Position numbers and translations under genes: made by a program
Virus record (IMG/VR): IMGVR_UViG_3300023504_000391
Coordinates: 51,299-115,298 of that record
DNA from: a virus
Strand: one strand, 5' to 3'
Length of the DNA stretch: 64,000 nucleotides
Shown: positions 15,910-64,000 of the stretch, piece after piece
How the letters are laid out: the number at the start of each line of letters is the position of its first letter
Numbering within the stretch: the first letter of the stretch is position 1
Notes under the pieces: model-generated
What the model saw: the letters and a program-made list of their open reading frames with translations, nothing else
What the model was told of the DNA's origin: nothing
Databases searched by the model: none

Positions 15910-16440
15910 ATGTCAGTAAAAGGAATTTATTTTAAAAAATTTAAAAATGTAAACGATTTATATTTAACCGTTTGGGGAGAAGGGAATACAAAAGCAACAC
16001 AGATTGTAACAGCAGTTTGTAAGTTAATATATAAATGGTACAACGATGGTGATGTATTTGACAACAAACATTATGTTGACGGTTGGCGTAATGATATATC
16101 AAGTTATGCAAATTGGTTAGATCAAAATACAGATAAAGGAAGTGAAATTTTACATAGAATTTCAAATTGCGAATGTGGTAGTGATTATGAAGATTTATTA
16201 AAAGAACTTGCAGATACCCTTCTTGATGAAGAATATTTATTACAGCAGAACGAAATTAAAAAGGTTGGTAGTATTTATGAATGCGATGGTTTTTTTAAAT
16301 TTGAAGAAAATTGGGATGATGAAGAAGACGAATACATTGAAGAAGATGATGATATTGAATCGGCTATTATTGGTTCAGTAGGTGAATTTGTTGATACTGA
16401 TAGAGAATTTGACAAAGAATTTATTGAAAGAGGTGTATAA
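15910..16440 (+). CDS. hypothetical acidic protein
   Basis: AGCGAGG RBS; acidic C-terminus. Confidence 0.6.
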   Translation: MSVKGIYFKKFKNVNDLYLTVWGEGNTKATQIVTAVCKLIYKWYNDGDVFDNKHYVDGWRNDISSYANWLDQNTDKGSEILHRISNCECGSDYEDLLKELADTLLDEEYLLQQNEIKKVGSIYECDGFFKFEENWDDEEDEYIEEDDDIESAIIGSVGEFVDTDREFDKEFIERGV

Positions 16441-16442
16441 TA

Positions 16443-16661
16443 TTGCGAATTAGTTCAGATATTGATAGTGTAATAACCTTTCTTAAAGAGAAAAAGAAAG
16501 AGGGATACAAGTCTGTAGAATTAGTTGATGATGAAAGAGCTAGAGGATGGGCTACTATTGATCCGGAATTCGGCACACCTGTTTTAAAATTTATATTTAA
16601 CGAGAGAGAGAAAGAAGTCATAGGAATAGATGTAAGAACAAAAGAGACTAAATATAAATAA
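16443..16661 (+). CDS. hypothetical small protein (TTG start)
   Basis: AGAGGTG RBS about 12 nt before TTG 16443. Confidence 0.4.
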   Translation: MRISSDIDSVITFLKEKKKEGYKSVELVDDERARGWATIDPEFGTPVLKFIFNEREKEVIGIDVRTKETKYK

Positions 16662-16704
16662 ATGAAACCAAGTTTTCAAACGGAAGCGAAAGGAGAATAT
16701 AATT

Positions 16705-16971
16705 ATGGAAATAATAATGGATAAAGTGACAACATTAAGTGATGATCAATACAATAAAATTGCAAAAGGTAGTAGACTTGGGAAAGATATAAGAGAAGCT
16801 TTAGGCATTCCTGAAACTAAGAAGGTTAATATTGGTGACACAGTATGTACAGTAGGTCAACCATCAAACACAAAGGATGTTTTTAAATACACGTGGAACA
16901 ATAGAAATATTTTTTATGTTGTGATTAATCCAATGGGTGACAAGATGGCAATGTGTTATTCAATTTATTAA
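16705..16971 (+). CDS. hypothetical protein
   Basis: GAAAGGAGAA RBS. Confidence 0.6.
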   Translation: MEIIMDKVTTLSDDQYNKIAKGSRLGKDIREALGIPETKKVNIGDTVCTVGQPSNTKDVFKYTWNNRNIFYVVINPMGDKMAMCYSIY

Positions 16972-16983
16972 AGAGGTGATACT

Positions 16984-17289
16984 GTGAAATATGCAAATAG
17001 ATTAACAGATGAAGAATTAAGAGAAATTTATAGTTTACTTACTGATTCAGATAAAATTAATGAATTAAATATTACAAGAAATGAAAATTCTATCGACCTT
17101 GAAGGCTACATAGAAATTCTTGAAGAAGACTCAAATGAAACTCTTACTGTTTATGATGATTATACAATTGCAGATTATAATGTAAAAGTTTATCAACATT
17201 CGGGGTATTGTACATTAGATTATAGGAAATGGATGTATAGAAAGTTCGGCGATGAGTATACAAGAGATTATTTGCTCAATAATTATTAA
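16984..17289 (+). CDS. hypothetical protein (GTG start)
   Basis: AAAGAGGTG RBS before GTG 16984. Confidence 0.5.
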   Translation: MKYANRLTDEELREIYSLLTDSDKINELNITRNENSIDLEGYIEILEEDSNETLTVYDDYTIADYNVKVYQHSGYCTLDYRKWMYRKFGDEYTRDYLLNNY

Positions 17290-17317
17290 GTATTAAACAA
17301 AAGGAAAAAACTACAAG

Positions 17318-17506
17318 ATGAAAAAAGAAATTCAATTATTTATAACAATACCAGAGTTATTATTGGTTGGCAACAATGATGGTATTATGTATGATAGAGA
17401 CAAATTTTTAGTTGATGGTATTCAAAGAACGACAATATTGAAAAAGTTTTACAAAAAACATTTAGTAAAATCAATTTTGGATAATAAATTTGACAAGATA
17501 TTATAG
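17318..17506 (+). CDS. hypothetical small protein
   Basis: AAAGGAAAAAA upstream; 62 aa. Confidence 0.45.
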   Translation: MKKEIQLFITIPELLLVGNNDGIMYDRDKFLVDGIQRTTILKKFYKKHLVKSILDNKFDKIL

Positions 17507-17569
17507 TTTCTAAGTATAAGTGTTAATTGAAACCTAAGTTTATTATGATTATGGAAAGGAATGATGAGA

Positions 17570-17989
17570 ATGGAAATAAATAAAATGATATGCGAACATT
17601 GTGGAAAAGTATTTTATAGTAAATACTATACTGGTGGATATATAGATCATTATGAGAATTTTTCAAGATATAAAAATAATTTTGGGAAAGATATAAATGG
17701 AGACATAAGAGAAATTTGTTTCAGTGGAAATGATTTAAGAGATGATAAAGACATAGAAGAAAGATTGAATTGTTATCTTAAATGGGATAATATTCCTGAT
17801 GGTGTTAAAAATCAAGTAAAAGAAAAATGTGATTTTTTGATTAATAAAATATTAAAAGCTAAAGAACAAGCTGAAGAAATTGTATCTGATATGACTATGC
17901 TAGAAAGAAAATATCTTATTAAGGCTGCCGAAGAAAATTGTAGCACACCTTTTGGAAATGAAGATGATAAATTATGGGATGAATTTTAA
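17570..17989 (+). CDS. hypothetical zinc-ribbon protein
   Basis: ORF 17561..17989; CEHCGK N-terminal motif; GGAAAGGAATG RBS. Confidence 0.55.
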   Translation: MEINKMICEHCGKVFYSKYYTGGYIDHYENFSRYKNNFGKDINGDIREICFSGNDLRDDKDIEERLNCYLKWDNIPDGVKNQVKEKCDFLINKILKAKEQAEEIVSDMTMLERKYLIKAAEENCSTPFGNEDDKLWDEF

Positions 17990-18119
17990 CTTTTAAGATT
18001 GTTAAGAAAGAGGTATTTAGCAGTTAAATATAACTTATAAAAACATATAAAAAGTGTTGATTTTTATAACTTATATATTGATAGAATAAAGTATAAACAT
18101 TATAAGGAGGATTTACTTT

Positions 18120-18282
18120 ATGAGTAAATATTATTCTATCAATGAGTTTTCAAAGATATTAGGTGTATCAGCACAAAACATTACGAAATTGGGATAAGAA
18201 TGGAAAACTACGTCCTCGCCATACATCTAGTAATGGGTATAGGTATTATTCACACGGGCAATTAAATCAAGAAAACTTGTAA
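18120..18282 (+). pseudogene. remnant of an IS607-family TnpA serine recombinase (HTH domain only; +1 frameshift in an A-run near 18167-18170; catalytic domain absent)
   Basis: MSKYYSINEFSKILGVSAQNITKLG* continues in the next frame as LRNWDKNGKLRPRHTSSNGYRYYSHGQLNQENL*. I recall LRNWD..G.L.P.HT..NGYRYY as the IS607 TnpA N-terminal signature. Confidence 0.55.
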
Positions 18283-18312
18283 GAGAACTTATAGAGGATG
18301 GAGGTGAAAAAG

Positions 18313-19488
18313 ATGATAAAAACAATTCGAGTAATGTTACTTCCAAATAACAAGCAAAAGACTAAACTTTTCCAATATGCTAATACTGCCAGATTTGCTT
18401 ATAATTGGGCTTTAAGTAGAGAAAAAGAAAACTATAAAAATGGTGGCAAGTTCATATTTGATGGAGATTTGAGAAAAGAATTTACACAGTTGAAGAAAAC
18501 TGATAAATATTCTTGGTTAAATAAAATCTCTAATAATGTAACAAAACAAGCAATTAAAGATGCTTGTAACGCATATAAGAGATTTTTCAATGGATATTCA
18601 AAAGTTCCTAAGTTTAAAAGCCGTAAGAAATCAACACCATCTTTTTATCAAGATAATGTAAAAATTCAATTTTCTGATACTCATTTAAAAGTTGAAGGAT
18701 TTACAACTTCTAAAAAGAAGGATAAACAGAAATTAAATTGGATTAGACTTGCAGAACATAATAGAATACCTACAGATTGTAAATACACGAATCCTCGTAT
18801 CAAATATGATGGATTAAACTGGTATCTTACAGTGGGTATTGAATACAAAGACTCTACTATTGTCCCATCCAATGAAGGAATTGGAATAGATTTAGGAATT
18901 AAAGATTTAGCAATATGTTCTGATGGTAATAAATATCAAAACATTAACAAGACACAAAGAGTTAAGAAGTTAGAAAAACAAAAACGCAGGTTACAGCGTT
19001 CTATATCCAGAAAATATGGAAAAAATAAGAAAGGAGAAAGTTACTGTAAAACAAAGAATGTAATCAAAAAGGAAAAACTTTTATTAAAATTAAATCATAG
19101 ACTAACAAACATTCGTCAGAACTACATACATCATATAACTTCAGAGATTATAAAACGAGAACCAAGTTTTATTGTGTTAGAAGATTTGAATGTAAGTGGA
19201 ATGATGAAGAATAGGCATTTATCCAAAGCAGTACAACAACAAGGATTTTATGAAATTAGACGACAAATTGAATATAAGTCTGTTTGGAATAATATTTTAG
19301 TAATCATTGTAGACAGATTCTTTCCAAGTTCTAAATTATGTAGTTGTTGTGGAACAATCAAGAAAGATTTAAGTTTATCAGACCGTATTTACAGATGTGA
19401 ATGTGGAAATGTAATTGACAGAGACTATCAAGCATCTTTAAATCTAAAACGATATGGAGAAAATGTTTTAAAACAATCTGTAGTATAA
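18313..19488 (+). CDS. tnpB: TnpB (IS605 OrfB family; RuvC-like nuclease with C-terminal zinc ribbon)
   Basis: GIDLGIKDLA (Asp), FIVLEDLNVSGMMKN (Glu), VIDRDYQASLNL (Asp) plus CSCCG...CECGN zinc ribbon; ATG 18313 after a GGAGGTG RBS. Confidence 0.85.
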   Translation: MIKTIRVMLLPNNKQKTKLFQYANTARFAYNWALSREKENYKNGGKFIFDGDLRKEFTQLKKTDKYSWLNKISNNVTKQAIKDACNAYKRFFNGYSKVPKFKSRKKSTPSFYQDNVKIQFSDTHLKVEGFTTSKKKDKQKLNWIRLAEHNRIPTDCKYTNPRIKYDGLNWYLTVGIEYKDSTIVPSNEGIGIDLGIKDLAICSDGNKYQNINKTQRVKKLEKQKRRLQRSISRKYGKNKKGESYCKTKNVIKKEKLLLKLNHRLTNIRQNYIHHITSEIIKREPSFIVLEDLNVSGMMKNRHLSKAVQQQGFYEIRRQIEYKSVWNNILVIIVDRFFPSSKLCSCCGTIKKDLSLSDRIYRCECGNVIDRDYQASLNLKRYGENVLKQSVV

Positions 19489-33822: not shown

Positions 33823-33894
33823 TAGGGCTATCGCCAAGCGGTAAGGCACAGGGTTTTGATCTCTGCATCCATCGGTTCGAATCCGATTAGCCCT
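33823..33894 (+). tRNA. tRNA-Gln (anticodon UUG), CCA not encoded
   Basis: Manual cloverleaf: acceptor AGGGCTA/TAGCCCT, D-arm GCC-AAGCGGTAA-GGC, anticodon stem CAGGG/CTCTG with loop TTTTGAT, T-arm ATCGG-TTCGAAT-CCGAT. Confidence 0.8.
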
Positions 33895-33925
33895 GTTATT
33901 TACAGTAAGAAAGGAGAATAAGAAA

Positions 33926-57460: not shown

Positions 57461-58387
57461 TTGGAACAGAAGAAATTTATGGATATTTCACGTATTAAGG
57501 AAGATACGGAATTAACAGTAGCGAATACAGGTGGTTTCCATGTAGGAGATCATATTGTAATTCAGGAAAAGGTAGATGGAAGCAATTCAGCTATTGCTTA
57601 TGATAAAGAAACAAATAAGTTAGTTGCATTTTCGAGAAGGCAGACTCTTGATTATAACAACACATTAAATGGATTCTGGAATTGGGTACAGACATTGGCA
57701 GTTGAACCATTTCAAAAATATCCAAATTATGTATTTTTCATGGAGTGGCTTACAAAACATACTATTAAATATATTCCAGAAGCTTATGGTAAATCATATT
57801 TTTACGATGTATATGACAAAAAGAATGAATGTTATTTACCTCAATCAGAGGTTAAGAGACTTGCTGATGAATTAAATCTGAGATATGTTCAGACATTTTA
57901 TGATGGAGAGTTTATCTCTTGGGAGCATTGTATGTCATTTATGCACAAGTCAGATATTGCGGTTGATGTACCTGAAGGAATTGTCGTTAAGAATCAGACA
58001 GAACTTAACAACCTAAACTCAAGAACTCCATTTGTATTAAAGATTGTAAATTCACAGCTTAGTGAAATCAAGAAAGATAATCACAGACAGAAAGTAGAAG
58101 ATCCTCAGAAATTAGCAGCTAAAGCAAAGACTTCTGAAATTGTAGAGCAGATTGTCACAAAGAATCGTGTTCAAAAAGAATTATACAAAATGATTGATGA
58201 GGGTGTTTTACCTCAAAAGATTGAGCCACAGGACATGAGAATTGTTGTACAGAATCTACCTAAGAGAATTTTTGAGGATTGTGTAAAAGAAGAGAATGAA
58301 TTAGTTATCGAAGCTGGTGAATTCTTTGGTAAGATGTGTGATTCTGCAACTATGAATTGGGCTAAGAAGATTATTTTTGGAGAATAA
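57461..58387 (+). CDS. ATP-dependent RNA ligase-like nucleotidyltransferase (Rnl2/RNA_ligase-family; TTG 57461 or ATG 57479 start)
   Basis: Ligase motif I EKVDGSN (KxDG); motif IV-like EGIVVKN; motif V-like VLKIVNSQ. Confidence 0.7.
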   Translation: MEQKKFMDISRIKEDTELTVANTGGFHVGDHIVIQEKVDGSNSAIAYDKETNKLVAFSRRQTLDYNNTLNGFWNWVQTLAVEPFQKYPNYVFFMEWLTKHTIKYIPEAYGKSYFYDVYDKKNECYLPQSEVKRLADELNLRYVQTFYDGEFISWEHCMSFMHKSDIAVDVPEGIVVKNQTELNNLNSRTPFVLKIVNSQLSEIKKDNHRQKVEDPQKLAAKAKTSEIVEQIVTKNRVQKELYKMIDEGVLPQKIEPQDMRIVVQNLPKRIFEDCVKEENELVIEAGEFFGKMCDSATMNWAKKIIFGE

Positions 58388-58389
58388 AT

Positions 58390-58572
58390 ATGTGTAACCA
58401 TTGTGATTATAACTCACCTGACAATCAAATATATGTAGATCTATTAACAAATGAACATTACTTGGGCATTGAAACTTCTGAATGCGATGGTTATGATGAT
58501 GGTTGGAACTCATTAAGAAAGAAAATTTTAGGCGAAGCAGATTGGAACTCAGAAATTTTCAACGGAAGATGA
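58390..58572 (+). CDS. hypothetical small Cys-rich protein
   Basis: GGAGAA RBS; CNHCDYNSPDN. Confidence 0.5.
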   Translation: MCNHCDYNSPDNQIYVDLLTNEHYLGIETSECDGYDDGWNSLRKKILGEADWNSEIFNGR

Positions 58573-58693
58573 GTTGAGAAATAGAATAACTACACTTGAA
58601 AAAGAGAATAAAGAATTAAAGGAAGAAATAAATCATTTGATTGATAGAAACAATGAGCTATTAAGGTTGTATATAGAAAGGAATGATAAGTAA

Positions 58694-59479
58694 ATGGCAT
58701 ATATAAAAGAATATTGGCAGAATAAAGAACAGAGAGCAGAAACTGCTCGCAAACATACAAAAGAGATGCAGAATAAATATGGTCGTTGTATTCAGACTGC
58801 TATTTCTGCAACAAAAATTTATGATACAGATTCATTTAATAGGGATTTTGAAGAGGATATCGAAGACAAAGATACCAAGATTATTGTAGAGAATATTGAT
58901 AGTGTAGGTGCTGTAATGAAATACGGCAATCCAAGTACAGCAGTTCTTAATTTTTCTTCATATAAAAATCCAGGTGGAATGTTTCTAAATGGTAGTAAGG
59001 CACAGGAAGAGTGCTTATGTCACGAATCATTCTTGTACAATGTGTTGAGTCAGTTTGTATTAGAGTTTTATGATTGGAATAATCGACACAAGAATAAGGC
59101 TTTATATTTGAACAGAGGATTATTTTCTCCTGGTGTTTGGTTCTTTAGAGAGAATAGCCACATAGAGTGTAGCGTTATTACTTGTGCTGCTCCAAATAAG
59201 TCGGTTGCGCAGAAATATCAGAACGTGTCAGACGAAGAGAATACTAAAGTATTAAGAAGTCGAATTAAATTTGTTCTTGATATGGCAAAAGATAATAATG
59301 TGAGCACTCTTATTTTAGGAGCTTATGGTTGTGGGGTTTTTGGTCAAGATGCAACAGAAGTAGCGAATGTATTTAAAGAATATTTAACTACTATTCATAA
59401 ATGCTTCGATACTGTTGTATTTGCTGTTCCAAATGGTAGAGATGGTAACTATGAGAAGTTTGTAAAGGTGTTTGAGTAG
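58694..59479 (+). CDS. PARG-like macrodomain protein (DUF2263 / bacterial poly(ADP-ribose) glycohydrolase family)
   Basis: ..VLNFSSYKNPGGMFLNGSKAQEECLCHES.. matches the PARG signature GG-x6-8-QEE; ..ILGAYGCGVFGQD.. matches the family's C-terminal glycine-rich motif. Confidence 0.7.
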   Translation: MAYIKEYWQNKEQRAETARKHTKEMQNKYGRCIQTAISATKIYDTDSFNRDFEEDIEDKDTKIIVENIDSVGAVMKYGNPSTAVLNFSSYKNPGGMFLNGSKAQEECLCHESFLYNVLSQFVLEFYDWNNRHKNKALYLNRGLFSPGVWFFRENSHIECSVITCAAPNKSVAQKYQNVSDEENTKVLRSRIKFVLDMAKDNNVSTLILGAYGCGVFGQDATEVANVFKEYLTTIHKCFDTVVFAVPNGRDGNYEKFVKVFE

Positions 59480-60777: not shown

Positions 60778-61284
60778 ATGAATGGAAACGAATATCAAAG
60801 GTTCGTGATGGAATTAAATGATTATAACGATATGGAGAAAATCAATTTATTTGCTCAAAATAATGGTAACGCTACAACAGGATTATTATTAAACGGAGTG
60901 CTTGGGTTGACAGAAAAATCAGGTAATGTAGCAAGTGTTATCAAAAAGGGGATATTTAATAAACAATATATAAATAAAGAATCTTTAAAAGAAGATTGTG
61001 GAAATGTATTGAAATATCTTTCTATAATTTGTGCAGGTTTTGGATTTACAATGGACGAAATAATGAATCCAAATATCTTAACTAACAACTATGAAAGAGA
61101 AGAAACAACAAATAAAATTTTCAAAGAGATTGAAACTGTTCAGAAAATTAGAGAACAAACTATTAACGAAGTTATAAATCTCATAGATGACTTCCAAGAT
61201 ACTTTAGCTTATGGAGAATACGATTATTTTCCAAACGAAGACATAAAAGATTGGTTAGAAAAACTAAAGAAAAAGGTGGAATAA
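60778..61284 (+). CDS. MazG-like all-alpha nucleoside triphosphate pyrophosphohydrolase-fold protein (some catalytic acidic residues appear substituted)
   Basis: ..LLNGVLGLTEKSGNVASVIKKGIF......LKEDCGNVLKYLSIICAGFGFTMDEIM.. matches the MazG/HisE-like pattern (GL.gEaGE...K......EELGDvLwYL). Confidence 0.55.
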   Translation: MNGNEYQRFVMELNDYNDMEKINLFAQNNGNATTGLLLNGVLGLTEKSGNVASVIKKGIFNKQYINKESLKEDCGNVLKYLSIICAGFGFTMDEIMNPNILTNNYEREETTNKIFKEIETVQKIREQTINEVINLIDDFQDTLAYGEYDYFPNEDIKDWLEKLKKKVE

Positions 61285-61572
61285 ATGAAAACAACTGAAG
61301 CTAAAGCAATTAAGAAGATAAGAGAATATAAAAATAGGTTAAATTTTTATTCTATTAATAAATCTTTAGACATTGCTATTGATGCACTTGAAAAAAGAAT
61401 TCCTAAGAGACTTAATAATATACATGTTAAAAGAGATTTTTATGGGCATCCTTTTTTAATAACAGGTGATTGCCCAACTTGTGGAGCATCAGGAATAAAC
61501 ACATCAACTACTAATTATTGTTATTGTTGTGGACAACGAGTTGATGGATCAGGTTGGGAAGAAAGAGAATAA
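61285..61572 (+). CDS. hypothetical zinc-ribbon protein
   Basis: CPTCGAS...CYCCGQRV; start overlaps the upstream stop (TAAATG). Confidence 0.6.
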   Translation: MKTTEAKAIKKIREYKNRLNFYSINKSLDIAIDALEKRIPKRLNNIHVKRDFYGHPFLITGDCPTCGASGINTSTTNYCYCCGQRVDGSGWEERE

Positions 61573-61600
61573 AAACTAGATAGTTATTGGAGAGAAATTA

Positions 61601-62587
61601 TTGAAATTACATAAAAAGATTAAATCAAAAATAGATGACAGTATTAAATATATATTTTTTACAGAAGAAGGTTTAGCTGTAGAATCAACGTTTATAGATA
61701 AGCATGATAGTAAAAATATTATCTGTTTACCAACTCAGACTTCTCGTTGTATGAAATGTAAGTTTTGTCATATAACCGACATAGCATCAGAAATTATTTT
61801 AAGAAACATAACAGATATTGAGATAGTACAAATGGTTGATTATATATTTAACGATTTAGAATTATCAAAGGATAAAATGTTGCTTATCTCTTTTATGGGT
61901 TGTGGAGAGCCTTTATTAAACTCAGTAAATTTGATTAAAGGAATGATTTTATTAAACAGTTCTTATGCAAAAATTAGATTTGCCCTCGCCACTTCGATGC
62001 CCAAAAATAATGAAGAACATTTTAAAGATTTTGTTAAAAAAATAAAAGATAATAAATTGAATGTAAAACTTCATTTATCATTGCATTATACAAACGATTT
62101 AGACCGACATAATTGGATGCCTAATGCTGAAATAATAAGTAAGTCTTTGGAATTATTAGATTATTATAAAAAAATAACAAATAATGCTATAGAAATACAT
62201 TATACATTAATAAATGAAGTAAATGATAGAGAAGAAGACATTAAGAAATTAATTAGCTTTTTTAAAAATAAAGATGTATGTATTAAATTTATTAGATATA
62301 ACTCTAAAAACACCATCAACTCCACAGAGACTCCGATAAACAAAGCAGAATCAATTATGAAAATATTAGAAAACAATGGAATTAAAACAGAATATTATAT
62401 TCCACCTGCGAGAGATGTTGGTGGTTCTTGTGGTCAAATATTGGTTAAAGAATATTTAAAATACAATAAGAAAAACATTCAAATAAATATTAGAACAAAC
62501 ACAGATGATTTGGATAAATCTATTAAACAATACAGAGAAAACAGAGAGCGTAATCCTCATATATATATGCTAACAAAAACACACTAA
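61601..62587 (+). CDS. RlmN/Cfr-like radical SAM enzyme (TTG start)
   Basis: ..NIICLPTQTSRCMKCKFCH.. aligns with RlmN ..LCVSSQVGCALECKFC.. but with one residue fewer (C-x2-C-x2-C); ..ISFMGCGEPLLN.. matches RlmN ..FMGMGEPLLN; ..TLINEVNDREEDIKKL.. matches the family's L..vND motif. Confidence 0.7.
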   Translation: MKLHKKIKSKIDDSIKYIFFTEEGLAVESTFIDKHDSKNIICLPTQTSRCMKCKFCHITDIASEIILRNITDIEIVQMVDYIFNDLELSKDKMLLISFMGCGEPLLNSVNLIKGMILLNSSYAKIRFALATSMPKNNEEHFKDFVKKIKDNKLNVKLHLSLHYTNDLDRHNWMPNAEIISKSLELLDYYKKITNNAIEIHYTLINEVNDREEDIKKLISFFKNKDVCIKFIRYNSKNTINSTETPINKAESIMKILENNGIKTEYYIPPARDVGGSCGQILVKEYLKYNKKNIQINIRTNTDDLDKSIKQYRENRERNPHIYMLTKTH

Positions 62588-62790
62588 ACGCCTTAAAACA
62601 ATTAAGGTTAAAAGAATTAAATAATAAAACTTTTAAAATTAATGCAGATGTAATTATGGGTGTTATGGGTGTATGTATAGAAGATTATGAAAAAGATATG
62701 CTTTATCTAGGATCTATTTACGGTTGCAAAATGGTTTGTGATGATACATTAAACTATGGAGAAATTGAATTGAAATAGGAGAAATATATA

Positions 62791-63090
62791 ATGGATAAAA
62801 ATAATCACAACATGTCTTTGACTTTAGAGTGGAATGAATATGATAACAACAATACAAACCGTAGAATCAAAGTCATCGGTTATCCAAACACTCTAAGTGA
62901 AGCATTTTCTTTAATAAGAAAGTTCTTGAAACAACATAATTATAAATGTTATGCAATAAGACGATGGTTAAAGGAGAATAGAGTAGTGATTGATGTTGGT
63001 AGTCATACTCAGCTCTTCTACATAAGTAACTTAAATGAAACGACAAAACAAGAATTGATTAAAGAAGGATTGATAAAAAATGAGGATTGA
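62791..63090 (+). CDS. hypothetical protein
   Basis: ATAGGAGAAAT RBS. Confidence 0.6.
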   Translation: MDKNNHNMSLTLEWNEYDNNNTNRRIKVIGYPNTLSEAFSLIRKFLKQHNYKCYAIRRWLKENRVVIDVGSHTQLFYISNLNETTKQELIKEGLIKNED

Positions 63091-63625
63091 AGTAGCAAAA
63101 CATGAGGATATGTGGCAGGAAATAAAGAACTCTGCTATGTTTACTATGGGTAAAGATGCTGGTAAATATCCAACAAGTGAATGGAAAAAGAGAATATTAT
63201 TAGCAGAACATAGTCCAATAAGAGATGGATACTTTATTTTAAACTGCTATGAAATACCATCATTTGTCATTGGACATATCGTTCGACATTTTAACGGTAT
63301 TGAAAAATATGTCCAGTCATTAAGAAGCGATAGAACAGAATATACAGAAGTCCCTAATAGAAATACATTACAGAATGTTAGATTAAGAATTAATTTTCAA
63401 GCGTTTATTAATATTAGTAGAAAAAGACTTTGTTCTTGTGCAAGTAAAGAAACAAGAGAGTTTTGGCAATTAATTCTTGATACAATTAAAAGTTATGAAC
63501 CAGAGCTATATTCGGTCTGTGTTAGAGAATGTATCTATAGAGGCTTCTGCCCAGAGATGAAAAGTTGTGGATATAACAATACTGAAGCCTTTCATCAAGC
63601 TCTTAGTGAATATAGAAAAGTATAA
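63080..63625 (+). CDS. divergent ThyX-like (flavin-dependent thymidylate synthase fold) protein
   Basis: ..LLAEHSPIRDGYFILNCYEIPSFVIGHIVRHFNGIEKYVQSLRSDR.. parallels the ThyX ..ESPLEH..F.F.I.G.SRA..HQLVRHRIASYSQQSQRY.. block, but RHR is replaced by RHF with a one-residue spacing difference. Confidence 0.45.
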   Translation: MRIEVAKHEDMWQEIKNSAMFTMGKDAGKYPTSEWKKRILLAEHSPIRDGYFILNCYEIPSFVIGHIVRHFNGIEKYVQSLRSDRTEYTEVPNRNTLQNVRLRINFQAFINISRKRLCSCASKETREFWQLILDTIKSYEPELYSVCVRECIYRGFCPEMKSCGYNNTEAFHQALSEYRKV

Positions 63626-63712
63626 CTACTATATATAGTAGCATATGTAGATTTACAATACTATATATAGTAATAAAAGAGTGATGAAATCAGGATTTCA
63701 AGAGGAGGATAT

Positions 63713-64000
63713 ATGGATAGAGTAGAAAGAATTAAAAACCTAATAAATACATTAAACACAGCATCAACTGCTTATTATACATCAACTCCTATTATGAGCG
63801 ACTATGAGTGGGATAAATTGTATGAAGAGTTAAAGCAACTTGAAAAGGAAACTGGAACGATATTCAATAACTCACCAACACAAAATGTAGGTTATGTTGT
63901 TTTGGATAAGTTGAAAGAGGTAACACATAATCATCCAATGCTATCTTTAGATAAAACTAAAAACATTGAAGATTTAATAAGTTTTATTGGCAATAACCGC
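63713..64000 (+). CDS. ligA: NAD-dependent DNA ligase, N-terminal part (continues beyond the window)
   Basis: MDRVERIKNLINTLNTASTAYYTSTPIMSDYEWDKLYEELKQLEKETG matches the LigA Ia/adenylation N-terminus (YY...P..SD.EYD.L...L..LE); GAGGAGGA RBS; two palindromic TACTATATATAGTA motifs upstream. Confidence 0.75.
   Translation, partial: MDRVERIKNLINTLNTASTAYYTSTPIMSDYEWDKLYEELKQLEKETGTIFNNSPTQNVGYVVLDKLKEVTHNHPMLSLDKTKNIEDLISFIGNNR

What the first reader, a model, noticed from the sequence alone, without database searches (positions are those of the whole stretch)
61601..62587. Phage-encoded RlmN/Cfr-like radical SAM enzyme with a shortened CxxCxxC iron-sulfur motif
The protein matches RlmN/Cfr hallmarks: the C-[LV]-[SP]-[ST]-Q-[VT] lead-in, a CKFC cluster, FMG.GEPLLN, and an L..vND motif. 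RlmN and Cfr methylate A2503 of 23S rRNA and tRNA, and Cfr confers multi-antibiotic resistance. Here the cysteine cluster is C-x2-C-x2-C rather than the canonical C-x3-C-x2-C. A phage copy could reprogram host ribosomes or tRNAs, or modify phage nucleic acid. The neighbourhood (MazG-like, ThyX-like, LigA) is nucleotide-focused.
Basis: partly seen in the sequence, partly recalled or inferred. Interest (0 to 1): 0.65.

Follow-up and report, generated by a model that had tools for sequence, protein, structure and literature searches.

The report
Short phage RlmN-like enzyme, mutated cysteine
This prophage gene belongs to an uncharacterised short branch of the RlmN/Cfr RNA-methylating radical-SAM enzymes, and its odd "CxxCxxC" iron-sulfur motif is a single-base mutation of an essential cysteine in one circulating allele, not a new kind of motif.

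Summary
The ORF (61601-62587, +, 328 aa) is real and clearly related to RlmN/Cfr by profile, sequence and predicted fold. Both catalytic cysteines are present: C42 matches E. coli C118 and C277 matches C355.

It is not an RlmN or Cfr orthologue.
- Its scores are far below the curated cut-offs.
- It lacks the N-terminal HhH2 RNA-binding domain.
- It carries its own invariant residues at the positions that surround the target base.
- It sits in a separate clade (97/100 bootstrap) of about 290-300 aa proteins found in large phages and in Patescibacteria assemblies.

The "shortened" motif is not a deletion. The distance from C42 to C56 is the same as in RlmN. The canonical first ligand codon is CGT (Arg49) instead of TGT, one T-to-C change at 61745. 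The Cys at position 50 is a spare cysteine present in the closest relatives, which read S-C-C-M-K-C-K-F-C.

Every other full-length family member examined (over 200) has CX3CX2C. The Arg allele recurs in at least five other assemblies, so it is a real polymorphism and not a read error. This copy also has a TA-repeat frameshift that cuts off a lineage-specific tail.

The allele is probably impaired. Rescue by Cys50 is possible but untested, and the substrate is unknown.

The parts
61589..61594 (+). Shine-Dalgarno-like GGAGAG, 6 nt upstream of the TTG start
   Evidence: Read directly from the sequence. The N-terminus MKLHKKIKS is shared by homologues.
61601..62587 (+). CDS of a short RlmN/Cfr-superfamily radical-SAM protein (328 aa). 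The exact protein is P0114.
61601..61732 (+). Beta-sheet extension (residues 1-44, four predicted strands). In RlmN/Cfr this element links the HhH2 domain to the radical-SAM core. Here the protein begins with it, because the HhH2 domain is absent.
   Evidence: Residue 1 aligns to about E. coli RlmN residue 80. The TIGR00048 match starts at profile position 75. Secondary structure from the model. Domain description from PMC13001441.
61724..61726 (+). Codon for Cys42, equivalent to E. coli RlmN C118 / Cfr C105, the cysteine that resolves the enzyme-substrate crosslink
   Evidence: Alignment. Conserved in 65 of 69 family members.
61745..61747 (+). Codon 49, CGT (Arg), in the column of the canonical first [4Fe-4S] ligand (E. 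coli C125). Sister alleles have TGT (Cys).
   Evidence: T/C SNP at 61745. (68 of 69 family members and 15 of 15 canonical proteins have Cys).
61748..61768 (+). Codons 50-56, C-M-K-C-K-F-C. Cys50 is the lineage-specific spare Cys. C53 and C56 correspond to E. coli C129 and C132.
61892..61921 (+). FMGCGEPLLN, the conserved RlmN/Cfr 'MGxGEP' motif (E. coli residues 176-181)
62429..62431 (+). Codon for Cys277, equivalent to E. coli RlmN C355 / Cfr C338, the methyl-carrier cysteine
   Evidence: Invariant in 69 of 69 family members.
62483..62587 (+). Lineage-specific C-terminal tail (residues 295-328). It is low-confidence in the model and absent from family members outside the 90% cluster.
62559..62568 (+). 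(AT)5 tract. One repeat unit more than in sister genomes shifts the frame and ends the ORF at 328 aa instead of 391 aa.
62656..62778 (+). 40-aa ORF that corresponds to the last 40 residues of the 391-aa form in sister genomes
60778..61284 (+). MazG-like gene, part of the conserved local block
   Evidence: phrog_229 at 5.3e-14. Conserved position in L002-L009.
61285..61572 (+). 95-aa Cys-rich (zinc-ribbon-like) protein immediately upstream
   Evidence: phrog_10714 at 4.6e-12. Conserved position.
63080..63625 (+). 181-aa protein with a weak, partial Thy1 (ThyX) match
   Evidence: PF02511 at 23.6 bits, below the 24.8 cut-off.
63714..64000 (+). 5' end of an NAD-dependent DNA ligase (LigA) gene, cut by the end of the window
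   Evidence: 653-663 aa LigA at the same offset in sister loci..

Best explanation
The gene encodes a member of a distinct short clade (about 290-300 aa core) of the class-A radical-SAM methyltransferases, the RlmN/Cfr superfamily.

**The family.** It keeps the radical-SAM core, the beta-sheet extension and both mechanistic cysteines. It lacks the N-terminal HhH2 RNA-binding domain. It has its own invariant residues around the target-base pocket.

**Inferred mechanism, as in RlmN/Cfr.**
1. SAM methylates Cys277.
2. A second SAM is cleaved at the [4Fe-4S] cluster, and the resulting radical abstracts a hydrogen atom from the methyl-Cys.
3. The methylene radical adds to an sp2 carbon of an adenine in a nucleic acid, most likely RNA.
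4. Cys42 resolves the crosslink.

**Location.** The gene sits in the early, nucleotide-metabolism end of a large temperate phage or prophage with about 30% GC.

**This copy.** It is a naturally circulating allele in which the first cluster-ligand cysteine has become arginine through one T-to-C transition. Its closest relatives have a Cys-Cys doublet at this spot, so the remaining cysteines read CxxCxxC. The allele is most likely impaired or inactive (about 60%). Otherwise Cys50 takes over as the ligand (about 40%).

The same copy has a TA-repeat frameshift that removes a lineage-specific C-terminal tail.

**Shown:** family placement, fold, residue equivalences, the SNP origin of the motif, and recurrence of the allele. 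**Inferred:** the chemistry, an RNA substrate, and the functional state of the allele.
For: **Homology and fold**
- TIGR00048: 1.3e-34. Cfr models: 1e-17 to 1e-18.
- PDB Cfr and RlmN hits.
- Model pLDDT 93; best structural matches are RlmN 6fz6, 3rfa and 5hr7 at TM 0.71-0.73.

**Residue mapping**
- E28=E105, C42=C118, R49=C125, C53=C129, C56=C132, C277=C355.

**Separate clade**
- The short family plus P0108 splits from canonical RlmN, Cfr and Cfr(C) in 97 of 100 NJ bootstraps.
- A profile search finds 1,322 representatives at E<=1e-30.

**Distinct pocket**
- At the ten base-proximal positions that differ between RlmN and Cfr (PMC12458371), the family has I, K, G, I, L, L, S, x, P, P.

**Origin of the motif**
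- 107 homologues, and every representative that retains the motif region (about 130 of 148), have CX3CX2C.
- The closest relatives read S-C-C-M-K-C.
- The window differs by a TGT-to-CGT change at 61745, with no indel.

**A real allele**
- The exact protein is on 4 contigs. The Arg allele is also in P0115, P0118 and P0125 and in loci L006-L010, from different samples.

**Signs of decay**
- The Arg-allele group includes a gene split by an A-run frameshift (P0118/P0119, 9 contigs) and the window's own TA frameshift.

**Prophage context**
- An integrase lies about 9 kb downstream in sister loci, and contigs reach 634 kb or more.
- Replication genes fill the window.
Against: - No experiment exists on any member of the short clade, so substrate and regiochemistry are extrapolated from RlmN/Cfr.
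- The missing HhH2 domain is described as crucial for rRNA binding (PMC13001441). Together with the different pocket, this argues the substrate may not be A2503 or A37.
- No conserved gene neighbour was found across 33 non-redundant loci that could point to a substrate.

On the functional state of the allele:
- The Arg allele is otherwise intact in several assemblies (P0115, P0125, L010).
- It lies on at least three different flanking backgrounds, so it has persisted.
- CxxCxxC is the spacing ferredoxins use to hold three irons of a cubane. Ligand swapping to a nearby free Cys is known in ferredoxin mutants (from my own knowledge, not tested here).
- Frameshifted copies also occur in the Cys allele (P0124/P0120). 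Decay is therefore not specific to the Arg allele.
Confidence: 0.72

Rival explanations
1. The CxxCxxC site is a functional new radical-SAM cluster motif. Cys50, Cys53 and Cys56 ligate the [4Fe-4S] cluster, and the Arg49 enzyme is fully active.
For: - Cys50 sits next to the lost ligand and was already present in the closest relatives.
- The Arg allele is intact and recurrent in several samples and on several flanking backgrounds.
- It is the only non-synonymous difference between the two main haplotypes.
Against: - None of more than 200 diverse full-length family members, and none of 15 canonical RlmN/Cfr proteins, has this spacing.
- The allele is confined to sequences more than 99% identical to Cys alleles, so it has never been fixed in any deeper lineage.
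- Additional frameshifts occur in the same allele group.
Confidence: 0.3
2. The motif is a sequencing or assembly artefact, for example a 3-nt deletion, as the first reader suggested checking.
For: None found.
Against: - There is no length change. C42 to C56 has the same spacing as in RlmN/Cfr.
- The difference from sister genes is a single T/C SNP.
- The same allele was assembled independently in at least five other samples from ENA, Logan and IMG/VR. The exact protein is on 4 contigs.
Confidence: 0.01
3. It is a genuine RlmN or Cfr orthologue. It methylates 23S rRNA A2503 (C2 or C8) and/or tRNA A37, and could alter antibiotic susceptibility.
For: - Best profile and structure matches are RlmN and Cfr.
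- Both catalytic cysteines and E105 are conserved.
- About 40%-identical members lie in Patescibacteria assemblies next to a cellular-type YraN-like gene, which would fit a housekeeping role there.
- The phage's only tRNA, Gln(UUG) at 33823-33896, has G29, A37 and U38, features of good E. coli RlmN substrates (PMC5130265).
Against: - Scores are less than half the curated equivalog cut-offs.
- The HhH2 domain that anchors the RNA is missing.
- R114, R344, K345 and R347 of RlmN, and Q329 of Cfr, are replaced by family-invariant G, Y, x, P and P.
- It forms a separate clade.
Confidence: 0.2
4. The short clade acts on DNA or on the deoxynucleotide pool, for example C-methylation of adenine in phage DNA, as part of a nucleotide-modification module.
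For: - In this lineage the gene sits among MazG-like, ThyX-like, LigA, NrdDG and dUTPase genes.
- Elsewhere it neighbours dCMP deaminase, a kinase-like gene and an NrdG-like gene.
- The family lacks the RNA-shape-reading HhH2 domain and has a more hydrophobic pocket.
Against: - No neighbour is conserved across lineages. Other members sit beside IF3, peptidyl-tRNA hydrolase, RimK-type ATP-grasp and sigma-factor genes.
- No precedent for this chemistry was found in the literature searches.
- The enzyme class spends two SAM molecules per methyl group transferred, which suits site-specific rather than bulk modification (inference).
Confidence: 0.12

Closest known systems
RlmN (dual-specificity 23S rRNA m2A2503 / tRNA m2A37 radical-SAM methyltransferase; TIGR00048; PDB 3RFA, 5HR7)
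   Same: - Radical-SAM core with beta-sheet extension; predicted fold TM 0.71-0.73.
- E105, C118, C129, C132 and C355 equivalents, the MGxGEP motif and the CGQ motif are present.
- The same methyl-Cys / resolving-Cys mechanism is therefore plausible.
   Different: - No N-terminal HhH2 domain; the protein starts at about RlmN residue 80.
- 119.7 bits against a cut-off of 290.
- Base-proximal residues differ at 9 of 10 compared positions, and R344 is replaced by an invariant Tyr.
- Separate clade.
- In this allele the C125 equivalent is Arg.
Cfr / Cfr(B-E) (23S rRNA m8A2503 methyltransferase conferring PhLOPSA resistance; TIGR04432, NF000424; PDB 9P0P)
   Same: Same superfamily, fold and catalytic cysteines. 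About 25% identity.
   Different: - 64-68 bits against cut-offs of 530-550.
- No HhH2 domain.
- Cfr's C8-determinant Q329 is Pro here.
- No evidence of a resistance function.
PHROG phrog_27142 ('Fe-S-cluster redox domain-containing', the old COG0820-style name) and other phage RlmN-like proteins, e.g. Tunturiibacter phage Tunturi_5 gp170 and Pseudomonas jumbo phages Phabio and Psa21
   Same: - The window protein matches phrog_27142 at 2.7e-20 over its full length.
- Tunturi_5 gp170 is 36% identical and falls inside the short clade.
   Different: - None of these has a studied function.
- Most phage hits are only 23-30% identical and may be other paralogous short RlmN-like groups. Some jumbo phages carry two.
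Radical-SAM enzymes with non-canonical cluster motifs, such as ThiC CX2CX4C, HmdB CX5CX2C and QueE CX14CX2C (recalled from my own knowledge, not checked here)
   Same: Three cysteines with non-CX3CX2C spacing in a radical-SAM fold.
   Different: Those motifs are conserved across their families. Here the spacing is confined to one shallow allele of a family that is otherwise strictly CX3CX2C.

Membership tests
Radical SAM superfamily (PF04055) | Pfam score at or above the gathering threshold | tested here: met
   35.0 bits against 29.5, residues 51-217.
Radical SAM superfamily (PF04055) | CX3CX2C triad ligating the [4Fe-4S] cluster | tested here: not met
   This allele reads R49-C50-x2-C53-x2-C56. 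The canonical first Cys column holds Arg. Sister alleles and all other family members meet the criterion.
Class-A radical-SAM methyltransferases (RlmN/Cfr superfamily) | Methyl-carrier Cys (RlmN C355) and resolving Cys (RlmN C118) in the conserved CGQ and C-x-[SP]-[ST]-Q contexts | tested here: met
   C277 and C42 align to C355 and C118.
Class-A radical-SAM methyltransferases (RlmN/Cfr superfamily) | RlmN/Cfr-type fold (radical-SAM partial barrel plus beta-sheet extension) | tested here: met
   Model pLDDT 93. The top 11 PDB matches are all RlmN or Cfr, with E from 1e-18 to 2e-11.
RlmN (TIGR00048 / NF008396 equivalogs) | Score at or above the curated cut-off | tested here: not met
   119.7 bits against 290; 67.8 bits against 633.
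RlmN (TIGR00048 / NF008396 equivalogs) | N-terminal HhH2 accessory domain (PF21016) | tested here: not met
   No Pfam hit. The match starts at profile position 75, about E. coli residue 80. Canonical hits P0110-P0112 do carry PF21016.
RlmN (TIGR00048 / NF008396 equivalogs) | RlmN-type residues around the target base (I109, E111, R114, T116, T171, N172, V174, K345, T346, R347) | tested here: not met
   Only I109 is shared. The family set is I, K, G, I, L, L, S, x, P, P (positions taken from PMC12458371).
RlmN (TIGR00048 / NF008396 equivalogs) | Forms m2A at 23S A2503 and tRNA A37 | not testable with these tools
   Needs an enzymatic or in vivo assay.
Cfr (TIGR04432 / NF000424) | Score at or above the curated cut-off | tested here: not met
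   64.1 bits against 550; 67.7 bits against 530.
Cfr (TIGR04432 / NF000424) | Cfr-type pocket, including Q329 (C8 specificity) | tested here: not met
   The equivalent residue is Pro268, in 67 of 69 family members.
Cfr (TIGR04432 / NF000424) | Confers the PhLOPSA resistance phenotype | not testable with these tools
   Needs MIC assays.
Short phage/Patescibacteria RlmN-like clade (phrog_27142-related; alignment A1) | About 290-300 aa core that starts at the beta-extension. Invariant K156, H158, Y266 and the EYYxPP motif. Monophyletic against RlmN/Cfr. | tested here: met
Known anti-phage defence systems (PADLOC) | Match to any defence-system protein model | tested here: not met
   No hit for the protein or its four neighbours.

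The most novel reading that the evidence does not exclude
The short clade is a third functional class of RlmN/Cfr-type methyltransferases. It has no HhH2 domain and its own invariant, more hydrophobic base pocket. On this reading its substrate is neither 23S A2503 nor tRNA A37. Candidates are another RNA site exploited by large phages to retune or protect translation, or an adenine in phage DNA or nucleotides.

In addition, the Arg49 allele may show that a ferredoxin-like CX2CX2C triad can support radical-SAM chemistry.
Probability: 0.3. Interest if true: 0.7.

Novelty: new variant of a known kind. Interest (0 to 1): 0.38.

Why it matters
The headline feature, a new shortened Fe-S motif, turns out to be an ordinary point mutation in one allele. 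That removes most of the original excitement and also rules out a sequencing artefact.

Two things remain of value.

**An uncharacterised family.** The short RlmN/Cfr branch has hundreds of 50%-identity clusters. It is common in large and jumbo phages and is present in Patescibacteria assemblies. It has lost the RNA-anchoring domain and rebuilt the base pocket while keeping the unusual methyl-Cys radical chemistry. Its substrate is unknown. It could be a new RNA (or DNA) C-methylation target used by phages.

**A natural experiment.** The Cys49 and Arg49 alleles form a ready-made pair for asking whether an adjacent cysteine can rescue a lost radical-SAM cluster ligand.

Nothing here supports labelling the gene as an antibiotic-resistance (Cfr-like) determinant.

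Tried and rejected
- **Conserved neighbours.** I called ORFs in 44 loci, clustered them by BLAST, inspected the immediately upstream genes and ran an aggregated Pfam scan of 132 flanking proteins. No partner occurs in more than 6 loci, and there is no consistent functional theme. The neighbours mix nucleotide metabolism, translation factors and homing endonucleases. Context therefore does not identify the substrate.
- **tRNA linkage.** Only 5 of 36 loci have any tRNA gene within 10 kb.
- **Host identification.** The one genome-contig scan returned no close relative of the window's lineage, only Patescibacteria and Clostridia assemblies at 47% identity or less. The host remains unknown; it is a low-GC organism, presumably anaerobic, since the phage carries NrdDG.
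- **DNA similarity to known phages.** Nothing meaningful was found.
- **Literature.** I found no paper on phage short RlmN-like proteins, and nothing describing CX2CX2C as the SAM-cluster motif of a radical-SAM enzyme (four papers hold both terms; none was opened).
- **Defence-system models.** No hit.
- **C-terminal tail.** The lineage-specific tail (residues 295-391 of the long form) has no homologue next to the gene in other lineages.
- **3-nt deletion artefact.** Rejected.
- **Model geometry.** Model coordinates are not exposed, so I could not measure whether Cys50 can reach the cluster.
- **dN/dS.** Not attempted. Sister alleles differ at only 3 sites, and deeper orthologues are likely saturated at synonymous sites.
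Full report
**1. The observation**

The ORF at 61601-62587 (+ strand, TTG start preceded by GGAGAG, 328 aa) exists as described.
- C42-LPTQT
- C53-KF-C56
- FMGCGEPLLN
- LINEVND
- GGSC277GQ near the C-terminus

The relationship to RlmN/Cfr is not a chance resemblance.
- NCBIfam's RlmN model TIGR00048 matches at E=1.3e-34, and the Cfr models at 1e-17 to 1e-18.
- Pfam Radical_SAM passes its threshold.
- The best solved-structure sequence matches are Cfr (9p0p, 7.5e-13) and RlmN (3rf9, 2.2e-11).
- An AlphaFold2 model built on a 65-sequence family alignment has mean pLDDT 93.
- Its 11 best PDB matches are all RlmN or Cfr (TM 0.71-0.73 for RlmN, 0.60 for Cfr). Other radical-SAM enzymes follow only after that.

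**2. What the "shortened" motif really is**

HMMER's alignment to Cfr and RlmN and a MAFFT alignment with E. coli RlmN give these equivalences:

| Window residue | E. coli RlmN residue |
|---|---|
| C42 | C118 |
| R49 | C125 |
| C53 | C129 |
| C56 | C132 |
| C277 | C355 |

The distance from C42 to C56 is 14 residues, exactly as in RlmN and Cfr, so nothing is deleted. The canonical first cluster ligand has been replaced by arginine, and the cysteine at position 50 is an extra residue.

Among 107 homologues of the short family, every one has CX3CX2C. The closest relatives (98% and about 67% identity) read S/T-C-C-M-K-C-K-F-C, so they already carry a Cys-Cys doublet.

A profile search of 1.84 billion representatives returned 148 new sequences. 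Every one that retains the motif region (about 130 of the 148) has CX3CX2C, and none has CX2CX2C.

At the DNA level the window's gene differs from sister genes (L002-L011) at three SNPs and one indel. The relevant SNP is T-to-C at 61745, which turns TGT into CGT.

**3. The allele is real**

- The exact 328-aa protein is on four contigs.
- The Arg49 allele is also found in P0115 (including NCBI DAE83794.1, 'putative Fe-S-cluster redox enzyme [Bacteriophage sp.]'), P0118 and P0125.
- It is also in loci L006-L010, which come from different ENA, Logan and IMG/VR samples.
- The Cys49 allele is commoner (P0116 on 47 or more contigs, P0117 on 12).
- Across about 2.4 kb around the gene the haplotypes are almost identical, so the Arg allele probably arose once.
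- It now sits on different larger backgrounds. The upstream island holds either RNA ligase plus a PARG-like gene or an NAD-salvage cassette. The window also diverges downstream of about 63.2 kb.

**4. Other lesions**

Most cluster members are 391 aa. The window has one extra TA unit in an (AT)n tract at 62559-62568. This shifts the frame and ends the protein at 328 aa, leaving the last 40 codons as a separate small ORF at 62656-62778.

The tail beyond about residue 294 is lineage-specific and poorly modelled, so losing it need not matter.

In the Arg-allele group, one variant on nine contigs is split in the catalytic core by an A7-to-A8 slip (P0118/P0119). A split variant also exists in the Cys-allele group (P0124/P0120). 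The gene therefore looks dispensable in this prophage lineage.

**5. What family it belongs to**

It is neither RlmN nor Cfr.
- Its scores are less than half the curated cut-offs: 119.7 against 290 for RlmN, and 64-68 against 530-550 for Cfr.
- The protein begins at about residue 80 of E. coli RlmN, at the beta-sheet extension. It therefore lacks the HhH2 N-terminal domain.
- A recent cryo-EM study describes that domain as crucial for rRNA binding and as reading RNA shape (PMC13001441).
- Ten base-proximal positions were proposed to separate C2- from C8-specificity (PMC12458371). At these the family has its own near-invariant set, I, K, G, I, L, L, S, x, P, P. This shares one residue with RlmN and one with Cfr.
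- RlmN R344 is an invariant Tyr in the family. K156 and H158 are family-specific invariants.
- In an NJ tree, the short family (with P0108) separates from E. coli and Paraclostridium RlmN, Cfr, Cfr(C) and clostridial RlmN-like proteins in 97 of 100 bootstraps.

The clade is large, with 1,322 representatives at E<=1e-30.
- It occurs in many large and jumbo phage contigs in IMG/VR, up to 676 kb.
- It occurs in the cultured Tunturiibacter jumbo phage Tunturi_5 (gp170, 36% identity).
- About 40%-identical members occur in Patescibacteria assemblies, next to a cellular-type YraN-like gene.
- PHROGs groups it as phrog_27142, 'Fe-S-cluster redox domain-containing'.
- I found no functional study.

**6. 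Genomic setting**

The window has about 30% GC and a strong GC skew, and nearly all genes are on the + strand.

It holds the replication and accessory half of a large temperate phage:
- a replication initiator
- Sak4-like and DnaB-like proteins
- RecJ-like exonuclease
- a DnaE-type polymerase
- ClpP-like protease
- RNA ligase
- a PARG-like macro-domain protein

Sister loci continue from the rSAM gene through a 99-aa ORF, the weak ThyX-like gene, LigA, NrdD/NrdG and dUTPase to an integrase about 9 kb downstream. Contigs reach 634 kb or more, so the element is an integrated prophage of an anaerobe.

Across 33 non-redundant loci from other lineages, no neighbour is conserved. tRNA genes are rarely nearby.

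The window's single tRNA, Gln(UUG), has G29, A37 and U38. These are features of good E. coli RlmN substrates (PMC5130265). This is only a hint.

**7. Most likely mechanism**

Shown:
- The fold, the SAM-binding motif, and the Cys277 and Cys42 equivalents are conserved across the clade.

Inferred from the established RlmN/Cfr mechanism (summarised in PMC13001441):
1. Cys277 is methylated by SAM.
2. A second SAM is reductively cleaved at the [4Fe-4S] cluster, and the 5'-deoxyadenosyl radical abstracts hydrogen from methyl-Cys.
3. The methylene radical adds to an sp2 carbon of adenine in a nucleic acid.
4. Cys42 resolves the crosslink.

RNA is the most probable substrate class. The exact site is open, given the missing HhH2 domain and the altered pocket.

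For this allele, loss of the first ligand most likely impairs or abolishes cluster binding (about 60%). Rescue by Cys50 is a reasonable alternative (about 40%). It would give a ferredoxin-like CX2CX2C triad. The allele's persistence on several backgrounds is compatible with rescue, and equally with the gene simply being dispensable.

**8. Verdict**

- The family-level interpretation is partly correct: the right superfamily, but not RlmN or Cfr.
- The 'new shortened motif' is a point-mutant allele, neither a family feature nor an artefact.
- Nothing supports a Cfr-like resistance role.
- The lasting interest lies in the uncharacterised short clade and in the natural Cys49/Arg49 pair.

Noticed in passing
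L002 3087-7511; L006 2264-6244 (sister prophages). The corresponding window region is 57461-59479.: The island just upstream of the MazG-like/rSAM block is variable. Sister genomes carry an NAD+ salvage cassette there (nicotinamidase-like, Prs-like, NAMPT, NADAR, NadE). The window and L007 carry an RNA ligase plus a microbial-PARG/macro-domain protein. Lar-like restriction alleviation and DNA methylase genes also appear. It looks like a swappable counter-defence island.
   Followed up: partly
window 62559-62568: An (AT)n tract decides whether the rSAM ORF is 328 aa ((AT)5, this window) or 391 aa ((AT)4, all sister loci). It could be slippage-prone.
   Followed up: yes
P0118/P0119 and P0124/P0120 (members of the 90% cluster): The gene is split by frameshifts in some genomes. 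One is an A7-to-A8 slip at the codons for YYKKIT, around window 62168-62175. Splits occur in both the Arg49 and the Cys49 allele groups, which suggests the gene is dispensable in this prophage lineage.
   Followed up: partly
L043, L046, L048, L050 (IMG/VR jumbo-phage contigs): These phages encode two different short RlmN-like paralogues within 4-10 kb. One belongs to the clade studied here. The second is more RlmN-like but also lacks the N-terminal domain (for example L048 5286-6233). L050 also has an array of 19 tRNA genes at 16101-18970.
   Followed up: partly
P0091, P0093, P0096, P0098, P0106; 10 of 104 representatives: A sub-group of the short clade has Val or another residue in place of the C118-equivalent resolving cysteine ('VVVPTQT'). 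This should block the known RlmN resolution step unless another Cys substitutes, for example the family's Cys in FMG-C-GEP.
   Followed up: no
L056, L059 and other Patescibacteria MAG contigs: About 40%-identical members of the short clade lie in candidate-phyla-radiation assemblies next to a YraN-like gene. The short form may be a cellular gene there. Whether it replaces canonical RlmN was not tested.
   Followed up: partly
window 33823-33896: A single tRNA-Gln(UUG) gene with G29, A37 and U38. A sister-clade phage (L012) carries tRNA-Gln(UUG) and tRNA-Arg(CCU).
   Followed up: partly
L004 15410-18825: The anaerobic ribonucleotide reductase gene nrdD is interrupted by a GIY-YIG endonuclease ORF in one sister genome. 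An HNH ORF follows nrdG. These are probably mobile intron or homing-endonuclease insertions.
   Followed up: no
window 18298-19488; L004/L005 6873-7712; L001 16510-18057: IS605/IS200-type transposase and TnpB (Cas12f-like) ORFs are scattered through these phage genomes.
   Followed up: no
window 63178-64000: Sequence divergence from sister genomes rises from about 0.1% to about 7% downstream of roughly 63.2 kb (end of the ThyX-like gene, start of LigA). This indicates a recombination breakpoint.
   Followed up: partly
window 63080-63625: The 'ThyX-like' protein is only 181 aa and matches just the last 46 positions of the Thy1 profile, below threshold. The orthologous position in L001 holds a 226-aa protein with a clear Thy1 hit. 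The window's version may be a divergent or degenerate ThyX.
   Followed up: no
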